From NCBI RefSeq assembly GCF_044324875.1, contig NZ_CP172190.1: a stretch of DNA of 5,318 nucleotides. One strand, given 5' to 3'. Under the pieces are notes generated by a model. The model had not been told where the DNA came from and ran no database searches. It worked only from the letters and a program-made list of their open reading frames with translations. This document shows, one piece after another, positions 747 through 5,318 of this stretch. Origin of the DNA: Escherichia coli. Lineage in GTDB: Bacteria > Pseudomonadota > Gammaproteobacteria > Enterobacterales > Enterobacteriaceae. Position 1 is the stretch's first letter. The number at the start of each line of letters is the position of its first letter. The translations under genes and the position numbers were made by a program.

Positions 747-1154
747 ATTTACTTACCATGATATATTTCGCGGGAGCTTTTCATATACATACTCCATTTA
801 TTCTCGGAGCGGATATACATTCATTTATAAAGTCATTCATTTTTCTATCCCCTGGTCTGAGTTTTTGCATTTGTTGTTATGACTATTTAATGCTAATTAT
901 CAGATAACCTTTTTTACACGCCATAAACACGATTATGATTGATGTTTTATATTGTCGATATTTCGTTGTCCAGACTGTATATGTCTGGAAATTTGTTTGC
1001 ATACGGGTTCGTTCCGTTTAGCTGGCTTTTTGGATGAGAAAGTTTGCTGTTTTGACCCGTTCGCGCTTCTGAACGGGGGTTTGGTGTTCTTTTGCGCGGC
1101 GTCTCCGATCCGCTCCCACACCTCCAAACCAAATACCGAAACCCTGCAAACCAA

Positions 1155-1232
1155 GCGAGTGGCGGCTCCGCTCGCCGCAGCCCCAGCGACCGAGCGTTAG
1201 CGAGCAAGTGGGCGAGGAAGCGGAAGTGAACC
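1155..1232. other. Putative primosome assembly site (PriA-type ssi/pas-like hairpins) flanking the origin
   Basis: GC-rich island in an otherwise AT-rich origin region. CCGCTCGCCGCAGCCCCAGCGACCGAGCGTTAGCGAGCAAGTGGGCGAGGAAGCGGAAGTGAACC closely parallels, from memory, the pMB1/pBR322 sequence just downstream of the ColE1-type origin (CCGCTCGCCGCAGCCGAACGACCGAGCGCAGCGAGTCAGTGAGCGAGGAAGCGGAAGAGCG), including the GAAGCGG core. A 6-bp stem hairpin CGCTCG...CGAGCG lies at 1169-1196. Confidence 0.35.
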
Positions 1233-1301
1233 GTAGCCAGGTTGAGCACATACGCACGGTTTTTCGACAGGTGATATGCGCCGAACCCGCATGAATACTG
1301 G

Positions 1302-1310
1302 ATTTCCACA
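1302..1310 (+). promoter_or_regulatory. DnaA-box-like 9-mer (ATTTCCACA)
   Basis: 8 of 9 match to the TTWTNCACA DnaA box consensus, in the same orientation as the two other boxes, upstream of the AT-rich repeats. Confidence 0.4.
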
Positions 1311-1397
1311 GGGTTGAGCGGGGTTTTTGCTAAAGTCCGCGAAGTGGATTTTTGTAACATCTTGTTTTTTCTTGTTTTTCCTTTTGCGCACCCCAAG

Positions 1398-1406
1398 TTT
1401 TCCACA
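1398..1406 (+). promoter_or_regulatory. DnaA box (TTTTCCACA)
   Basis: Full match to the relaxed consensus TTWTNCACA, located about 20 bp upstream of the AT-rich 13-mer repeats, the expected place for DnaA-assisted unwinding. Confidence 0.5.
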
Positions 1407-1426
1407 GGCTCGCTGTTAAGTTTTTA

Positions 1427-1465
1427 GATCTTGTTTTTAAGATCTTGTTTTTAATACTTGTTTTA
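1427..1465. repeat. AT-rich DNA unwinding element: three tandem 13-mers (GATCTTGTTTTTA x2, ATACTTGTTTTA) with Dam GATC sites
   Basis: Direct repeats at 1427-1439, 1441-1453 and 1454-1465, resembling the oriC 13-mer consensus GATCTnTTnTTTT. Further copies of CTTGTTTTT lie at 1361-1369 and 1371-1379. The block sits between a DnaA box and the iterons. Confidence 0.6.
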
Positions 1466-1508
1466 GGGTCGAATTTTCTTATGGAATTCAAGAGTTTAGA
1501 AGACTATA

Positions 1509-1591
1509 GGTAATATAATTTAAGGTAAAGGCAATATGATTTAAGGTGGATAGGCAATATGATTTAAGGTAAAGGCAATATGATTTAAGGT
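1509..1591. repeat. Iterons: four direct repeats with ~21-23 bp periodicity (core GGCAATATGATTTAAGGT)
   Basis: Exact 18-mer GGCAATATGATTTAAGGT at 1530-1547, 1553-1570 and 1574-1591, plus a degenerate copy GGTAATATAATTTAAGGT at 1509-1526. The spacing of about two helical turns and the position directly upstream of a Rep_3 gene are the classic iteron arrangement. Confidence 0.85.
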
Positions 1592-1592
1592 A

Positions 1593-1601
1593 ATATCCAC
1601 A
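1593..1601 (+). promoter_or_regulatory. DnaA-box-like 9-mer (ATATCCACA) between iterons and the rep promoter
   Basis: 8 of 9 match to TTATCCACA, immediately after the last iteron. Confidence 0.4.
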
Positions 1602-1617
1602 GGAAAAGGGATATTAA

Positions 1618-1658
1618 AATTAAATCATATTGCCTTTACCTAAAGGAATGTTTATATT
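1618..1658 (+). promoter_or_regulatory. rep promoter (-35 TTGCCT at 1630-1635, 17-bp spacer, -10 TATATT at 1653-1658) overlapped by an inverted iteron (autoregulatory operator)
   Basis: 1622-1640 is the exact reverse complement of the 19-bp iteron core GGTAAAGGCAATATGATTT; extended to about 24 bp there is one mismatch. Inverted-iteron operators over the rep promoter are characteristic of Rep_3 initiators (dimer binding, autorepression). The -35 element lies inside this inverted repeat. A GAGGG Shine-Dalgarno sits at 1678-1682, 7 nt before the ATG at 1690. Confidence 0.6.
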
Positions 1659-1689
1659 TTACTCATTGCCTTAGGTTGAGGGATTTACA

Positions 1690-2391
1690 ATGTCGGATCT
1701 GATTGCCTACAAATCCAATGCACTGGTTGAGGCCAGCTATAAATTGACTCTTCAGGAACAGCGATTCTTGTTACTTTGCATTGGTCGATTGAAGTCGGGT
1801 TCTGATGCAGAATCCACTGAATTGCAAAAGACCATGACTGTTACCGCCGAAGAGTATTTCGACTCATTCCCTGATATGGGGCGGAAAAATGCCGAGGTTC
1901 AGCTACAGGAAGCAATTGATCGTTTGTGGGACAGGTCGATCATCCTTAAGGACGATGAGAAGCGCGAGGAGTTCCGCTGGATCCAGTATCGGGCACAGTA
2001 CGCTAAAGGTGAGGGCAAAGCCCAAATCACTTTTTCAGATGCGGTCATGCCTTATCTGACACAGTTGAAGGGGCAATTTACTAGAGTTGTAATTAAGAAT
2101 ATCTCCAATTTATCAAGAAGTTACAGCATAAGAATATACGAACTTCTCCAGCAATTCCGCAGCACAGGGGAACGTATTATCGCCCTCGATGATTTTCGCT
2201 CAATGCTTGATATAGAGCATAAATATCAAACATATAAGTCTCTGAACCAGCAATTATTAAGACCTTGCGTTGACGAACTGAATCAAAAAAGCGACTTGGC
2301 TGTAACGCTTGAGACGATCAAGAAGGGGCGCACGGTTGTAGCCCTGCATTTTCGCTTCAAGGAAGACAAACAGATCAAGATGACGATCTAA
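1690..2391 (+). CDS. repA: Replication initiator protein, Rep_3 family (iteron-binding RepA/RepE/pi-type)
   Basis: 233-aa ORF with good Shine-Dalgarno and promoter, directly downstream of the iterons. The N-terminus (YKSNALVEASYKLTLQEQRFLLLCIGRL) and the segment YSIRIYELLQQF...LDDFRSMLDIEHKY...YKSLNQQLLRPCVDELNQKSDL...KKGRTVVALHFRF parallel, from memory, pSC101 RepA, F RepE and pPS10 RepA. Length is within the family range (about 230-320 aa). Confidence 0.9.
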   Translation: MSDLIAYKSNALVEASYKLTLQEQRFLLLCIGRLKSGSDAESTELQKTMTVTAEEYFDSFPDMGRKNAEVQLQEAIDRLWDRSIILKDDEKREEFRWIQYRAQYAKGEGKAQITFSDAVMPYLTQLKGQFTRVVIKNISNLSRSYSIRIYELLQQFRSTGERIIALDDFRSMLDIEHKYQTYKSLNQQLLRPCVDELNQKSDLAVTLETIKKGRTVVALHFRFKEDKQIKMTI

Positions 2392-2402
2392 AATCGATTT
2401 TA
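2389..2402. repeat. 14-bp perfect palindrome TAAAATCGATTTTA overlapping the rep stop codon (copy 1)
   Basis: Self-complementary sequence read directly. The 13-mer AAAATCGATTTTA recurs exactly 90 bp downstream. Candidate protein-binding site; function unknown. Confidence 0.5.
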
Positions 2403-2410
2403 AGGCATCT

Positions 2411-2437
2411 AAAACGCCATCTGGTTCGTTTTTTTGG
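2411..2437 (+). terminator. Possible weak intrinsic terminator downstream of rep
   Basis: AAAACGCCATCTGGTTCGTTTTTTT: imperfect A/U-rich stem (AACGCCA / TGG..CGTT) followed by a 7-T tract, 20 bp after the rep stop. Confidence 0.35.
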
Positions 2438-2479
2438 TGTCAGGTATGCGATGGTACTACCAAGCAAATAAATTGCGTC

Positions 2480-2492
2480 AAAATCGATTTTA
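2480..2492. repeat. Second copy of the palindromic 13-mer AAAATCGATTTTA
   Basis: Exact repeat of the palindrome at the rep stop codon. Confidence 0.5.
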
Positions 2493-2774
2493 GAGAGCGG
2501 TATGGCAAACCATGTCGAACATTACTTGTGTTACTTGACGTGAGAGATGCGTTAATGCCGCCAGCAGCAGTCCCCCATCGAAGTGACTCATGTGTGACTA
2601 AAGAGCAAGCCTGAGCAACGTAGGAATCTCCAACCTTCAGGACGGGATGGATATCAAGCACCAGGGCACACTTGAAAACAAAACCTCGCCTCTGGCAAAG
2701 CGCGTCCTTTCACGATGACGTAGAGGTATTTGAATATCTGTAGGAGTTCATCACGCTATTTTAACGCTTAAAAA

Positions 2775-2840
2775 GCGCGTTTCTGATTGTGTAACTAAAC
2801 ACAGGTAGTAATTAGTAGGTGTGGGGGGGCAGAAACGCGC
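2775..2840. repeat. Inverted-repeat pair A: GCGCGTTTCTG (2775-2785) and CAGAAACGCGC (2830-2840), 44-bp spacer
   Basis: Perfect 11-bp inverted repeat read directly. It shares the 10-bp core CGCGTTTCTG with pair B at 3310-3373. The spacer contains a G7 run. Candidate operator pair or hairpin. Confidence 0.5.
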
Positions 2841-3180
2841 AATTAATATTTATCGTGAATTTGATTTTATGTCTAGTATCGAGAAACAGAATATAAAAAG
2901 ATTATCTTTGGAAATATAGAAAAAAAATAAAATAATAAACTAAAAACAATCAAAAAATAATAAATATTACACTACAATATGGCAATAATATATTCATTCA
3001 TATAGTGATATACGCTATGGTTTTCAAAATTTTCCTTGAGCTGAAGAACGGAGTTTTATGGCAAACGAGGTAATCTTGCACAGGAAAAATAGGTTGTATC
3101 TATGTCATGGTTTTGTTATTTTTTTTTGCTCAGTTATTGATGGTCAATATGTAAAATAAATCAGGTACTTCCTTACACTT

Positions 3181-3207
3181 ACCCTCATTCATTGAGGGTT
3201 TTTTTTA
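3181..3207 (+). terminator. Rho-independent terminator (plus strand)
   Basis: ACCCTCA-TTCAT-TGAGGGT: 7-bp GC-containing stem with a 5-nt loop, followed immediately by a run of 8 T. No T tract on the opposite strand, so it is unidirectional. No CDS lies upstream, suggesting it ends a small RNA or a decayed gene transcript. Confidence 0.7.
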
Positions 3208-3218
3208 TCCATATCTAA

Positions 3219-3531
3219 GTTGACATCCTCCATGCCCTGAAGGACGGGGTTTTACAGCACACCGGATAACTATCTCGACATGGATATTGATACACGTTAA
3301 AAATACGTGACGCGTTTCTGGCAGATATCTGAGGTCTATTTCGCCGTGTTAGCCACACTGTCAGAAACGCGTTCAATTTCTCCCGTTGAGCTGATATGCT
3401 CATCACCGCAATCACGGTAGTGTCCGAAGACGAACCGTTAATGCATCTTCCCCCCGATACTGGGCTTTCGGGGGGAATATTTACTCGGTGCGCCGTAAAA
3501 CCCCGTCCTTCAGGGCATGGAGGATGTCAAC
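3219..3531. repeat. 313-bp element bounded by perfect 37-bp terminal inverted repeats (MITE-like element or invertible segment); interior 239 bp
   Basis: 3219-3255 GTTGACATCCTCCATGCCCTGAAGGACGGGGTTTTAC is the exact reverse complement of 3495-3531. The interior contains its own inverted-repeat pair (3310-3373) and a 9-bp G/C stem hairpin (3449-3476). No convincing CDS inside, and no target-site duplication is evident at the boundaries. Confidence 0.6.
3310..3373. repeat. Inverted-repeat pair B: ACGCGTTTCTG (3310-3320) and CAGAAACGCGT (3363-3373), 42-bp spacer
   Basis: Perfect 11-bp inverted repeat (15 of 16 if extended), sharing the CGCGTTTCTG core with pair A. It lies inside the 37-bp-IR element. 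Confidence 0.5.
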
Positions 3532-3610
3532 ACGAATCCCCTATCTTCTTTTCAGTAAGAAACGGTCATTGAAAACTTATATAACACTACTTTTGGTGTG
3601 TATTTTGCGA

Positions 3611-3643
3611 TAAAAATATCCCCTATCCTAATGATAGGGGATA
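3611..3643 (-). terminator. Rho-independent terminator (minus strand)
   Basis: Plus-strand TATCCCCTATC-CTAAT-GATAGGGGATA forms an 11-bp stem (3617-3627 / 3633-3643). On the minus strand the stem is followed by A then UUUUU (plus-strand A-run 3612-3616). It is convergent with the plus-strand terminator at 3181-3207, so the two bracket the IR-bounded element. Confidence 0.55.
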
Positions 3644-3745
3644 CAAACGATGAATTAACAGTTCTTAATTCTCACGTGAAAAGATAGATTTTAACGAAGA
3701 CACAATCAGCAGTCTTATATCGAATGGCTATCGATCCTGAATCCT

Positions 3746-3838
3746 GATGAGTGGGGATGTTTCTGTACTACTAATGAAAAGCTATCCGGCTAGAGACTTT
3801 ACGATACAGAAACACCCCTCTTTCTTTTATCTCATCAG
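3746..3838. repeat. Long imperfect inverted repeat / hairpin (CTGATGAG...TGTTTCTGTA // TACAGAAACA...CTCATCAG)
   Basis: Outer 8-bp arms CTGATGAG / CTCATCAG and inner 10-bp arms TGTTTCTGTA / TACAGAAACA pair, with an asymmetric internal loop. Orientation and function are unknown. Confidence 0.4.
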
Positions 3839-4376
3839 ATGCCATAGCGCAAAACAATTTCGTTTCACAGATGTGACTTACAATCAAACTGTGCAACATA
3901 AATCACAAAACAAGAAGGTTTTGTTATTATTTTGTTGATGAGTTGTTTTTCGTTGGTTGTTTTTTTGAGGCGTACATACGCGCACAAATGTAAAACTAAA
4001 TTCGTGTTTTCGATAATTTTAAGGCCACAATCATTATGGCATTTTTTATCCTGATCGCCGTCAAAATCTGTCCTTCATGGCAGGATTTACGGCGATCCGG
4101 ATAACACCAAAGATACCTACATGCTCATTCCCCTGTGGTTTCCAGGATATCTTTCCTGTTTTCTGTGCTGTTCATCGCGCCGCCATACCCCGTAACGACT
4201 GCGCTCAGTACCCCTGAAATTTCGCTCGCCGGAAACACGCGGGTGTTGTTTTAACGTGTCCCGGTAGCGGTGTCCAGGCAGGTATGCTTCCGCCAGCGGA
4301 GTTGTTGATCTTGTGTTCTGTTTTTGGCTAGTATTTGTCCGAAAACCTGTCGCTCCGGCGACCAACTAATCTCCCG

Positions 4377-4471
4377 GTGGTCTGAGAGGGAGGCTTACGC
4401 GACCACACTGTCATCTCAGGATGACCAGCCAATGTTCCGGCAGTCTGAGAGGAGCGCCTTCGGGTGACTGC
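4377..4471. other. Two tandem structurally homologous hairpins (candidate structured RNA or protein-binding motif pair)
   Basis: Hairpin 1: stem GTGGTC (4377-4382) / GACCAC (4401-4406). Hairpin 2: stem GCAGTC (4440-4445) / GACTGC (4466-4471). The stem sequences differ but each keeps perfect pairing (compensatory changes). Both loops begin TGAGAGG and contain an inner mini-hairpin (GC-TTAC-GC; GCC-TTCG-GGT, a UUCG tetraloop). Both are preceded by CCGG. A further tetraloop hairpin GTCATC-TCAG-GATGAC lies between them at 4410-4425. Confidence 0.35.
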
Positions 4472-4934
4472 AATATCCCATGAGCCTGGAAGAGGATGCC
4501 TATATGGCGGCAACATCCGTTTAGCCTCTGGAAACGGATGTCACCAGTAGCTGGTGACTGAGGTACGTTATTTTTACCTTCGGATTACCCGTACGGTTTT
4601 GTATGTCATGAAACTTACGAGTTTTCCTCTCGCAGAGTGGCGAAATGCCTTATATATCTGCGTCTTAAAGATTTTCTGTCAGGCTGCATGAGCTTCTTGT
4701 GACTGTGCGCACGGCATAAGGCCATTTGAAATTTGGCTGCTTGCGTGTGTACGTGGAGTCTGAAGCTGTGCGGCGTCACTTGCGTGCGACCGGAGGGAAC
4801 ACCAAGTGACGCCACAACAATCTGCCCTGAAAGCAGCATCACGTAAGGCCTGCCAGAAAATCGTCGCTCGTGACCAGCGTTCTGATGACCGTTTTGTCTT
4901 TCTGACAGCGTCTTTCAGTAACGTGTCCATGCCT

Positions 4935-4981
4935 TTCCGGCGCGTCCGTTTTCACGGACGGCCACGCCGGAATGTCTTTTT
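4935..4981 (+). terminator. Rho-independent terminator (plus strand), compound GC-rich hairpin plus U tract
   Basis: Outer stem CCGGCG (4937-4942) / CGCCGG (4965-4970) and inner stem CGTCCGT (4943-4949) / ACGGACG (4954-4960) with loop TTTC, followed by TGTCTTTTT (4973-4980). It lies inside the 66-aa ORF 4806-5006, which argues that ORF is not a real CDS. Confidence 0.55.
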
Positions 4982-5037
4982 AAACTTCATAATACATGAG
5001 AGGTAAGTGTATTAACTTGTTGAAAAAAGGAATAAAT

Positions 5038-5127
5038 ATGAAAAATCGTTCTGAAGTCGGAAGGCGTCATCGTAAGATGACGGGGAGTAAAAAATCGCCC
5101 TGGTGCACAGGTAGCGAACTCCTGTAA
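5038..5127 (+). CDS. Possible small basic ORF (29 aa, MKNRSEVGRRHRKMTGSKKSPWCTGSELL); leader-peptide-like, speculative
   Basis: ATG at 5038 is preceded by AAGGA (5027-5031) with 6-nt spacing. The ORF is very short with no recognisable family, and lies about 55 bp downstream of the terminator at 4935-4981. Confidence 0.2.
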   Translation: MKNRSEVGRRHRKMTGSKKSPWCTGSELL

Positions 5128-5263
5128 AAACTCAACATGTGCAAGCTCTGCTACATCGACATCAAACGAGCCAGGAAGGCGAGCAACCGCGTTACAGAGC
5201 CGTCCGTGATGACGAAAAACTAACAATATCAACGATCTGGTCTGTTTATCGGAAGGGCATCTC

Positions 5264-5318
5264 ATGCAGTTGAACTTTCAGAACGGATGGTTTTCTGCAT
5301 CTTTTTTAACAGGGGGAT
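5264..5318 (+). CDS. Possible 5' end of a downstream gene running off the window (MQLNFQNGWFSASFLTGG...)
   Basis: ATG at 5264 is preceded by GGAAGGG (5251-5257) with 6-nt spacing. Only 18 codons are visible. The same sequence could alternatively fold as a weak hairpin followed by a T tract (5295-5307), so the call is tentative. Confidence 0.25.
   Translation, partial: MQLNFQNGWFSASFLTGG

What the first reader, a model, noticed from the sequence alone, without database searches (positions are those of the whole stretch)
3000..3207. Candidate small-RNA locus ending at a strong terminator, preceded by an A-rich tract
The best terminator in the window (7-bp stem plus 8 T) has no CDS upstream: the nearest ATGs give peptides of 18 residues or fewer. 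The preceding 2880-2975 segment is a phased A-tract-rich sequence typical of curved promoter-upstream DNA or H-NS-bound regions. Together these suggest a small RNA of about 150-250 nt whose 3' end is at about 3207.
Basis: inference. Interest (0 to 1): 0.4.

Follow-up and report, generated by a model that had tools for sequence, protein, structure and literature searches.

The report
Conserved plasmid terminator cassette, sRNA unproven
The flagged stop signal is a real transcription terminator that evolution has kept, closing a ~120-base non-coding module on a small E. coli plasmid; it may mark a small regulatory RNA, but nothing computed here shows a promoter, a fold or a known RNA family.

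Summary
The window is a complete 5.3-kb E. coli Rep_3 plasmid. Annotation covers only rep, lysE and one pseudogene.

**Observation.** The hairpin at 3181-3199 plus T8 is real and is the best plus-strand terminator. The A-rich tract is real (61% A), but helical phasing is not significant. The claim of "peptides of 18 residues or fewer" is wrong: ATG 3058 opens a 33-codon ORF with GGAG upstream. That ORF is not conserved. An internal poly-T tract is 8, 9, 10, 14 or 15 T in near-identical plasmids, and relatives lack its start.

**What is conserved.** Window 3092-3209 is 78-84% identical to unannotated DNA on ColE1-type colicin plasmids and IncK2/Z plasmids. Its last ~60 nt are a reusable cassette: a 21-nt box (AATCAG..A.TTCCYTAC.CT), a CCCTC/GAGGG hairpin and a T-run. 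Five sequence variants exist. Four keep hairpins of -9 to -14 kcal/mol, with two compensatory pair changes.

**Limits.** There is no Rfam family, no conserved promoter and no fold signal beyond the terminator. The family occurs only on E. coli plasmids (40 of 72,556 in PLSDB).

**Verdict.** This is a maintained terminator closing a non-coding unit. An sRNA is plausible but unproven. Interest is modest.

The parts
2880..2975 (+). A-rich tract (61% A), lineage-specific. It may act as a UP-like or AT-rich promoter region for either strand.
   Evidence: Composition is; no significant 10-11 bp periodicity. The left part (up to 2909) is replaced by a toxin-antitoxin cargo insert in metagenome contig L018, while 2910 onward stays attached to the unit.
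2966..3006 (+). Two overlapping weak sigma-70-like matches: ATTACA-17-TATATT (2966-2994) and ATGGCA-16-TATAGT (2979-3006). These are candidate start regions for a ~195-205-nt RNA.
   Evidence: 9 of 12 matches each, with promoter-like hits at chance frequency overall. The sequence is present only in the window plasmid family.
2957..2985 (-). Best promoter-like match of the whole window (TTGCCA-17-TATTAT, 10 of 12). It points away from the locus.
3058..3159 (+). 33-codon ORF preceded by GGAG (3050-3053). It is not conserved and is probably not a gene.
   Evidence: One search lists the ORF. The frame is altered by poly-T lengths of 8/9/10/14/15. tblastn finds it only in the same plasmid family. 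It has no Pfam match. The start and SD are absent in pSMS35_8 and IncK relatives.
3092..3209 (+). Conserved non-coding module, 78-84% identical to unannotated DNA on other E. coli plasmids.
   Evidence: Homology to the other plasmid families begins exactly at 3092.
3119..3127 (+). Hypervariable poly-T tract: 9 T here; 8, 10, 14 and 15 T in near-identical plasmids.
3159..3179 (+). Conserved 21-nt box AATCAGGTACTTCCTTACACT directly upstream of the hairpin. The CU-rich core TTCCTTAC is complementary to an SD-like GUAAGGAA.
   Evidence: 17 of 21 positions are invariant in five cassette variants. It is not consistently unpaired in folds.
3181..3207 (+). Intrinsic terminator: 7-bp stem, 5-nt loop, T8.
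   Evidence: Compensatory changes at the outermost pair (A-T versus C-G) and the innermost pair (A-T versus T-A) relative to the other cassettes.
3118..3147 (-). Antisense promoter-like match (TTGACC-18-AAAAAT) whose spacer includes the variable homopolymer.
   Evidence: 9 of 12. The dependence of spacer length on the T/A-run follows from the sequence. This is speculative.
3219..3531 (.). Context. Two inverted 55-nt copies of an IS609-type (IS200/IS605 family) end flank 203 nt, starting 12 nt after the terminator.
3616..3644 (-). Context. A strong minus-strand terminator, convergent with the one at 3181-3207.

Best explanation
Window 3181-3207 is a functional Rho-independent terminator. Together with a conserved 21-nt box just upstream (3159-3179), it forms a ~60-nt cassette that closes a short non-coding, rightward transcription unit on the plasmid backbone.

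The unit most likely starts in the AT-rich DNA at about 2990-3015 and ends at about 3205. That would give an RNA of roughly 190-205 nt.

Only the 3' part is conserved: the module at 3092-3209, and above all the last ~60 nt. So the functional product, if any, is this 3' end: a box-plus-terminator RNA of the kind seen in base-pairing sRNAs and 3'-end-derived sRNAs. The 5' part, including the 33-codon ORF, is lineage-specific filler.

Shown: the terminator, its conservation, the non-coding conservation pattern, and the restricted plasmid distribution. Inferred: the start site, the existence of a stable RNA, and any regulatory role of the box.
For: - **Terminator strength.** It has a 7-bp stem and T8, at -10.4 to -10.9 kcal/mol, and is the best on the + strand.
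- **Five cassette variants.** These are T1 (window); T2 and T4 (pSMS35_8-type colicin plasmids); T3 and T5 (IncK2/Z plasmids). They share AATCAG..A.TTCCYTAC.CT, a CCCTC/GAGGG hairpin and a T-run.
- **Hairpin maintenance.** T1, T2, T4 and T5 keep hairpins of -9.4 to -13.9 kcal/mol. Both-sided changes occur at the outermost pair (A-T to C-G) and the innermost pair (A-T to T-A).
- **Run conservation.** A conserved run of 7-9 T directly after the stem is expected of a terminator and not of a DNA site.
- **Non-coding conservation.** Window 3092-3209 is 78-84% identical to other plasmids, with indels that are not multiples of three. The poly-T tract inside the ORF is 8/9/10/14/15 T in plasmids otherwise ~99-100% identical here.
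- **Unidirectionality.** The terminator has no upstream A-run. It is convergent with a strong minus-strand terminator at 3644-3616.
- **Distance from rep.** rep ends 790 nt upstream, across untranslated RNA. By general knowledge of Rho, a local start is more likely than rep read-through.
- **Unit boundary.** In contig L018 a cargo insert replaces DNA up to 2909, yet 2910-4186 stays intact.
Against: - No promoter is conserved. Homology to the other plasmid families starts at 3092, downstream of the proposed promoter.
- The + strand promoter-like matches are only 9 of 12, and such matches are at chance frequency.
- The 195-nt RNA folds no better than shuffles (z +0.35). The 116-nt module reaches only z -1.55, mostly from the terminator.
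- The box is not consistently unpaired in predicted folds (mean P(unpaired) 0.33-0.55).
- No significant pairing was found to the rep or lysE translation-initiation regions.
- There is no Rfam match.
- One variant, T3, has decayed to -1.7 kcal/mol and is repeatedly cut by IS elements, so the module is dispensable there.
- Within the pSMS35_8/IncK block, the module is not more conserved than its neighbours.
- There are no expression data.
Confidence: 0.45

Rival explanations
1. It is a plain terminator or insulator with no dedicated sRNA. The cassette stops read-through from rep and spurious transcription from the 16-25% GC stretch. It thereby shields the downstream segment (IS609-type ends, conserved hairpins) together with the convergent minus-strand terminator at 3644-3616.
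For: - It is the first strong + strand terminator downstream of rep. Only a weak hairpin plus U7 follows the rep stop.
- The convergent terminator pair brackets 3208-3615.
- In pSMS35_8 and IncK plasmids, two cassettes face outward at the ends of an ~830-bp non-coding block, as insulators would.
- There is no conserved promoter and no fold signal.
Against: - A bare terminator does not explain why the 21-nt box upstream of the hairpin is the best-conserved part of the cassette (17 of 21 positions invariant).
- It also does not explain why a further ~65 nt upstream (3092-3158) is conserved across three plasmid families.
Confidence: 0.3
2. It is a functionless relic. The module is hitch-hiking mosaic DNA spread by recombination among co-resident poultry E. 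coli plasmids. The hairpin survives only because too little time has passed for it to decay.
For: - Distribution is very narrow: 40 of 72,556 PLSDB plasmids, 36 of 5,426 E. coli genomes, and no new variants in metagenomes.
- The backbone is a recombination mosaic: the rep part is ~80% identical, but 2300-4170 is 99-100% identical.
- The module is cut by IS629-like and IS2 insertions in several plasmids.
- T3 has decayed.
Against: - Two both-sided compensatory changes keep the stem intact at ~17-22% overall divergence.
- The T-run is kept in all variants.
Confidence: 0.1
3. It is a DNA-level site read on the minus strand: a hairpin followed by the conserved box (AGTGTAAGGAA..CTGATT), acting like an oriT nic region or another single-strand DNA recognition site.
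For: - A hairpin with a conserved flank on one side only is also the layout of oriT sites (general knowledge).
- On the minus strand the box begins TAAGTG, like the MOBQ nic consensus TAAGTGCGCCCT.
- Relatives of this plasmid encode a MobQ relaxase.
- The plasmid carries other DNA-structure-like motifs: STAXI, EFASI and three GTTTCTG...CAGAAAC hairpins.
Against: - Only 6-7 of 12 nic-consensus positions match. None of the five window sites within 3 mismatches of the consensus lies at the cassette.
- The cognate MOBQ oriT of the relatives is elsewhere (L010 5426-5475, TAAGTGCGCACT after an inverted repeat).
- The cassettes also sit on MbeA and NikB plasmids, with no common relaxase.
- A conserved run of 7-9 T after the stem has no role in an oriT.
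Confidence: 0.07
4. It is a small-protein gene. The 33-codon ORF (3058-3159) with its GGAG encodes a short hydrophobic peptide of the type I toxin kind. The terminator is its mRNA end, and the poly-T tract switches the C-terminus.
For: - The ORF has an SD-like GGAG 4 nt upstream and ends 22 nt before the terminator.
- It has a hydrophobic core, LYLCHGFVIFFCSVI.
- An antisense promoter-like match lies at 3147->3118.
Against: - Three different reading frames follow the poly-T tract among near-identical plasmids.
- The start codon and SD are absent in the other plasmid families that share the module.
- There are no homologues outside the family (tblastn) and no Pfam match.
- Poly-T and AT-rich DNA give hydrophobic ORFs by default.
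Confidence: 0.06

Closest known systems
Rho-independent (intrinsic) terminators of Enterobacteria
   Same: It has a GC-rich 7-bp stem, a 5-nt loop and a run of 8 U directly after the stem. It is unidirectional. The stem is kept by compensatory changes.
   Different: It travels with a conserved 21-nt upstream box as a reusable ~60-nt cassette, found at the ends of different transcription units on several plasmids.
Base-pairing sRNAs whose conserved seed lies just upstream of the terminator, including 3'-end-derived sRNAs such as CpxQ or SroC (from my own knowledge)
   Same: Conservation is concentrated in the last 50-60 nt: a short conserved stretch plus a terminator with a long U-tail. The upstream parts are variable or unrelated.
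   Different: No transcript, Hfq/ProQ binding or target is known here. The box is not consistently single-stranded in folds. No target was found on the plasmid.
Plasmid-borne regulatory RNAs (RNAI, CopA, FinP) and plasmid motifs STAXI and EFASI in Rfam
   Same: It is a plasmid-only, non-coding, terminator-ended element. STAXI and EFASI are present on the same plasmid, and RNAI is present on the colicin relative.
   Different: No covariance-model match was found at 3000-3207 or at the homologous sites. The element is not antisense to any replication or transfer gene.
Rfam RF02860 Arrc14 (Actinobacillus sRNA 14)
   Same: It is the only Rfam model aligning over 3056-3213.
   Different: The score is 26.8 bits against a gathering score of 99, with E 0.65. 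This is a chance-level match, so the locus is not a member.
Type I toxin small ORFs (Ibs, Ldr, TisB-like; from my own knowledge)
   Same: It has a short hydrophobic ORF with an SD and a nearby terminator.
   Different: The ORF is not conserved, its frame varies, and it has no homologues.

Membership tests
Intrinsic (Rho-independent) terminator | GC-rich stem-loop immediately followed by a U-tract | tested here: met
   7-bp stem (4 GC pairs), 5-nt loop, T8; -10.4 to -10.9 kcal/mol.
Intrinsic (Rho-independent) terminator | Stem maintained in evolution (compensatory changes) | tested here: met
   Two pairs changed on both sides between variants. Four of five variants keep -9.4 to -13.9 kcal/mol; one (T3) has decayed. 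Only five variants exist, so the evidence is thin.
Intrinsic (Rho-independent) terminator | Termination of transcription in vivo or in vitro | not testable with these tools
   Needs Term-seq or a reporter assay.
Independent trans-acting sRNA gene | Own promoter | tested here: inconclusive
   Only 9-of-12 matches at 2966-3006, promoter-like hits at chance frequency, and the region is not conserved outside the plasmid family.
Independent trans-acting sRNA gene | Conserved as RNA or DNA, not as protein | tested here: met
   Indels are not multiples of three. The poly-T tract is 8-15 T. The ORF start is absent in relatives.
Independent trans-acting sRNA gene | Conserved, accessible seed region | tested here: inconclusive
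   The box is conserved (17 of 21 positions), but P(unpaired) is 0.33-0.55 and it is paired in 3 of 5 contexts.
Independent trans-acting sRNA gene | Detectable discrete transcript | not testable with these tools
   No expression data are available here.
Any Rfam 15 family | Score at or above the family gathering threshold | tested here: not met
   The best hit is Arrc14, 26.8 bits against 99. Nothing was found at the homologous sites.
Type I toxin-antitoxin small ORF | Conserved small hydrophobic ORF | tested here: not met
   The frame varies among near-identical plasmids. There are no homologues.
MOBQ-type oriT | Inverted repeat followed by the nic consensus TAAGTGCGCCCT | tested here: not met
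   The cassette minus strand matches only TAAGTG (6-7 of 12). It is not among the window sites within 3 mismatches. The true oriT of the relatives lies elsewhere.
Curved or phased A-tract promoter-upstream DNA | A-tracts in phase with the helical repeat | tested here: not met
   Power at periods 10-11.5 is no higher than in shuffles. A-richness itself is confirmed.

The most novel reading that the evidence does not exclude
The ~60-nt box-plus-terminator cassette could be the working end of a small family of plasmid-borne regulatory RNAs. Small Col-type plasmids and large IncK2/Z plasmids that live in the same poultry E. coli cells would share it. Its CU-rich UUCCUUAC box would pair with Shine-Dalgarno-like GUAAGGAA sequences, giving co-resident plasmids a common RNA signal for cross-talk. 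All six genomes carrying this plasmid family also carry another cassette-bearing plasmid.
Probability: 0.1. Interest if true: 0.6.

Novelty: new member of a known kind. Interest (0 to 1): 0.3.

Why it matters
More than half of this plasmid (2400-5318) has no annotated gene, yet a 1.9-kb part of it (2300-4186) travels almost unchanged between plasmids with different rep alleles and cargo. If the cassette marks a real RNA, it would be an undescribed plasmid sRNA family shared by small and large co-resident plasmids of poultry E. coli. It would also give a handle on what this conserved non-coding backbone does. If it is only a terminator, the finding is ordinary. It still corrects the picture: there is no conserved gene, no phased curvature and no known RNA family here.

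Tried and rejected
- **Rfam.** I searched the window and two related loci. Nothing matched at the locus.
- **Xer site.** I searched for a cer/dif-type Xer site, because small plasmids carry one and Rcd is transcribed from cer. None lies in the window. pSMS35_8 has its cer core elsewhere, at 7100-7129.
- **G4-type primase site.** I considered this reading of the 55-nt inverted arms and rejected it. The arms match the end of the K-12 IS609 copy instead.
- **MOBQ oriT.** I tested this reading of the cassette's minus strand and rejected it.
- **Wider collections.** I scanned GTDB species genomes (twice), metagenomes and viral contigs for the cassette. No new variants appeared; the 14 loose-pattern genome hits are unrelated taxa at about chance level. 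A covariation analysis beyond five variants was therefore impossible.
- **ORF homologues.** tblastn and Pfam on the 33-aa ORF and on eight other small ORFs of the non-coding block found nothing.
- **Target pairing.** RNA-RNA pairing to the rep and lysE start regions was not better than shuffles. The first attempt timed out.
- **Literature.** Searches for sequence strings from the locus gave no hits.
- **tRNA/tmRNA.** The scan found none.

Full report
**What the window is.** The 5318 bases are a whole circular E. coli plasmid. It is 99.9% identical to pLH50-c-F (NZ_CP100506.1, 5319 bp) and to five related PLSDB records. RefSeq annotates only a replication initiator (1690-2391, +), a LysE translocator (174-746, -) and a pseudogene fragment. 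Pfam confirms Rep3_N/Rep3_C and LysE. Iterons lie at 1506-1612. Everything from 2400 to 5318 is unannotated. The finding lies in this non-coding half.

**Checking the observation.**
- The terminator is there: stem ACCCTCA/TGAGGGT at 3181-3199, loop TTCAT, then T8.
- My own scan gives -10.4 kcal/mol with 7 T in the 8-base tail. That is the best on the + strand. Only the minus-strand hairpin at 3644-3616 is stronger (-18.2 kcal/mol), and its tail is poorer.
- The A-rich tract is real: 59 A in 96 bases, the most A-rich stretch of the window, with GC of 16-19%.
- Helical phasing is not supported. AA-dinucleotide power at periods 10-11.5 is matched by 16-56% of shuffles.
- The statement that upstream ATGs give peptides of 18 residues or fewer is wrong. 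ATG 3058 opens a 33-codon ORF ending at 3159, and GGAG at 3050-3053 precedes it.

**The ORF is not a conserved gene.**
- Five plasmids are otherwise nearly identical over 2860-3260. In them, the poly-T tract at 3119-3127 inside the ORF is 9, 14, 15, 10 and 8 T long.
- Metagenome copies have 9 and 10 T. Three reading frames are therefore used after the tract.
- tblastn against 72,556 plasmids finds the peptide only in this family.
- Pfam finds nothing for it or for eight other small ORFs of the block.
- In the other plasmid families that share the downstream sequence, the start codon and GGAG are absent, and a 2-nt length difference breaks the frame.

**What is conserved.**
- Sensitive BLAST shows that window 3092-3209 is 78-84% identical to unannotated DNA on other E. 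coli plasmids. Nothing upstream of 3092 is shared.
- The other carriers are ~8.9-kb ColE1-type colicin plasmids such as pSMS35_8 (NC_010485.1) and large IncK2/Z conjugative plasmids.
- Matches are on plasmids only: 105 places, none chromosomal, in 36 of 5,426 complete E. coli genomes. Most are from poultry.
- In several large plasmids the module is cut by insertion sequences. An IS629-like element cuts inside the terminator in L004, L013 and L014. IS2 cuts in the T-tract in L005 and sits just after the terminator in L007.

**A reusable terminator cassette.**
- Local BLAST showed that the last ~60 nt (window 3152-3214) occur twice in pSMS35_8 and in the IncK plasmids. The copies are in inverted orientation, facing outward at the two ends of an ~830-bp non-coding block.
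- This gives five distinct cassettes (T1-T5).
- All share the box AATCAG..A.TTCCYTAC.CT (17 of 21 positions invariant), a hairpin built on CCCTC/GAGGG, and a T-run.
- The outermost pair is A-T in T1 and C-G in T2, T4 and T5. The innermost pair is A-T in T1 and T-A in T2. These are two both-sided changes.
- Hairpin energies are -10.9 (T1), -13.9 (T2), -9.4 (T2b), -13.2 (T4) and -11.5 (T5) kcal/mol. T3, the IncK copy that IS elements repeatedly disrupt, has decayed to -1.7.
- A run of 7-9 T kept directly after the stem is what a terminator needs. A DNA-binding site would not need it.

**How far the family reaches.**
- The strict cassette pattern found nothing in GTDB species genomes and nothing in viral contigs.
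- It found nine metagenome contigs, which carry only the same five variants.
- A looser pattern gave 14 hits in unrelated taxa, about the chance number.
- A search with the second-copy unit recovered the same 40 PLSDB plasmids.
- A statistically meaningful covariation test is therefore not possible.

**Evidence on the sRNA reading.**
- *For.* The terminator is maintained and unidirectional. The conservation pattern is non-coding. Conservation is concentrated in a short box next to the terminator, the usual layout of base-pairing sRNAs. rep ends 790 nt upstream, with only a weak hairpin plus U7 after its stop. Contig L018 replaces the DNA up to 2909 with a toxin-antitoxin insert and keeps 2910-4186 intact.
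- *Against.*
  - The + strand promoter-like matches at 2966-2994 and 2979-3006 are 9 of 12. Such matches occur at chance frequency (13 against 12.5), and the best match in the window points the other way (2985->2957, 10 of 12).
  - The region is lineage-specific.
  - RNA 3013-3207 folds no better than shuffles (z +0.35). The module alone gives z -1.55.
  - The box is paired in three of five predicted contexts.
  - No pairing to the rep or lysE start regions exceeds shuffles.
  - Rfam has no match: Arrc14 scores 26.8 bits against a gathering score of 99, with E 0.65, and the relatives show nothing.
  - Between pSMS35_8 and the IncK block, the module is not more conserved than its neighbours.

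**Surroundings.**
- The backbone 1152-4186 is shared with Col8282-type MobQ plasmids (98-99%) and with pGF43-E.
- Against pGF43-E, the rep and iteron part is only ~65-90% identical, but 2300-4170 is 99-100% identical. This is a recombination mosaic in which the 1.9-kb non-coding block moves as one piece.
- Window 4117-4186 is the 3' remnant of the mobQ gene of those relatives.
- Twelve bases after the terminator begins a 313-bp element bounded by 55-nt inverted arms.
- The arm sequence (~52 nt) is widespread:
  - It occurs on 825 plasmids.
  - It occurs in 146 phage records, including HK97 and H-19B, where it lies 42 nt upstream of stx1A.
  - It occurs in 4,903 of 5,426 E. coli genomes.
- In K-12 it is the outer end of the IS200/IS605-family element next to ydcL (tnpA pseudogene plus insQ). 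From my own knowledge this is IS609. It sits directly after the ydcL terminator.
- Every copy follows TTA, and in four of the six contexts TTTA. pSMS35_8 has one arm directly after its T2 T-run, and L005 lacks it as a clean ~45-nt indel. The arms' position next to terminators is therefore best explained by the target preference of this element. This is an inference.

**Order of modules.**
- In the window the order is: hairpin, A-rich DNA, module with terminator (->), IS609-type ends, terminator (<-), hairpin, a second sRNA-like unit.
- In pSMS35_8 and the IncK plasmids it is: terminator (<-), hairpin, sRNA-like unit, hairpins, module with terminator (->).
- One order is a circular permutation of the other. 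This would be expected if a window-like small plasmid had been opened between its two convergent terminators and integrated into a larger plasmid. This is an inference.
- All six genomes with a window-family plasmid also carry another plasmid with the module.

**Verdict.** The most likely reading (0.45) is a maintained intrinsic terminator with a conserved upstream box, closing a short non-coding unit whose conserved part is its 3' end. A plain insulating terminator (0.30) is nearly as likely. Relic DNA, a minus-strand DNA site and a small-protein gene trail behind. No known family fits. If real, this is a new member of a known kind (a plasmid sRNA or terminator cassette) with a very narrow distribution. 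Interest is 0.3.

Noticed in passing
window 3219-3273 and 3477-3531 (313-bp element): The 55-nt inverted arms are 91% complementary. The ~52-nt arm contains an imperfect hairpin, CCCCGTCC-TTCA-GGGCRTGG. It is the outer end of an IS609-type (IS200/IS605 family) element. Solo copies occur on 825 plasmids, in 146 phage records (HK97; 42 nt upstream of stx1A in H-19B) and in ~90% of E. coli genomes. Each copy follows TTA (TTTA in four of six contexts), often right after a terminator T-run.
   Followed up: yes
window 2779-2836, 3314-3368, 3759-3813: There are three long hairpins whose stem bases all read GTTTCTG...CAGAAAC (3 exact matches against 0 in 200 shuffles). The stems are perfect over 11-16 bp, the loops are ~35-45 nt, and the flanking stem bases differ but stay complementary. 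Fold z-scores are -3.1 to -4.1. More copies occur in pSMS35_8 and the IncK block. Their function is unknown. One (2776-2840) is disrupted in contig L018.
   Followed up: partly
window ~3937-4047 (+); L003 521-645: This is a second and better sRNA-like unit. In pSMS35_8 it has a 10-of-12 promoter match (TTGATA-18-TATGAT), a 5' hairpin, a conserved TCGTGTTTTCGATAAAATTAAGG stretch and an 11-bp terminator, with a compensatory change relative to the IncK copy. The window homologue has ATCACA-17-TATTAT with TG (3902-3930) and a weaker hairpin plus T-run near 4030-4047. It has no Rfam match.
   Followed up: partly
window 3119-3127 (and 3118-3147, - strand): The homopolymer tract is 8/9/10/14/15 T among near-identical plasmids. 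On the minus strand it lies in the spacer of a promoter-like match (TTGACC-18-AAAAAT), so its length would set the spacer to 17, 18, 19 or more bp. This could be phase-variation-like slippage or a homopolymer sequencing error.
   Followed up: partly
window 4409-4568 and 5046-5168 (+): STAXI (89.1 bits) and EFASI (71.7 bits) score above their Rfam thresholds. EFASI lies ~480 nt downstream of STAXI, the known association. Window 4341-4766 is ~92% identical to a segment of IncK2/Z plasmids. A paper reports both RNAs detected by RT-PCR in E. coli vesicles (PMC12370729).
   Followed up: partly
window 2663-2701 and 2957-2985 (- strand): The best promoter-like match of the window (2985->2957) points leftward toward a minus-strand terminator (2701-2683). 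This suggests a ~270-nt minus-strand RNA containing the 2776-2840 hairpin. Eight bases after that terminator lies CAAGTGTGCCCT, with 2 mismatches to the MOBQ nic consensus.
   Followed up: partly
window 1152-4186; 4117-4186: The backbone is shared with Col8282-type MobQ plasmids and with pGF43-E. The rep and iteron part is ~65-90% identical, but 2300-4170 is 99-100% identical (a recombination mosaic). Window 4117-4186 is the 3' remnant of mobQ. The cognate MOBQ oriT (TAAGTGCGCACT after an inverted repeat) lies in the part this plasmid has lost.
   Followed up: yes
table; L003, L004 and L007 blocks: All six genomes with a window-family plasmid also carry a second plasmid bearing the module. The ~830-bp block of pSMS35_8 and the IncK plasmids is a circular permutation of the window's module order. 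It looks like an integrated, opened small plasmid.
   Followed up: partly
window 2387-2494: A strongly structured domain lies right after the rep stop codon. Its 21-nt inverted arms (TCTAAAATCGATTTTAAGGCA) enclose 66 nt. Fold z is -3.2. A weak hairpin plus U7 sits inside it.
   Followed up: no
L018 1-1317 (metagenome contig OERO01000469.1): A relative carries a ~1.3-kb cargo insert (by eye from the DNA, a small membrane-protein-like ORF and a HigB/HigA-like toxin-antitoxin pair; not checked by any search) in place of window 2814-2909. This marks a cargo-insertion site just left of the candidate unit.
   Followed up: partly
window 3616-3644 (- strand): This is the strongest hairpin terminator of the window (up to 12-bp stem, -18.2 kcal/mol). 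It is convergent with the one at 3181-3207. The two bracket 3208-3615.
   Followed up: partly
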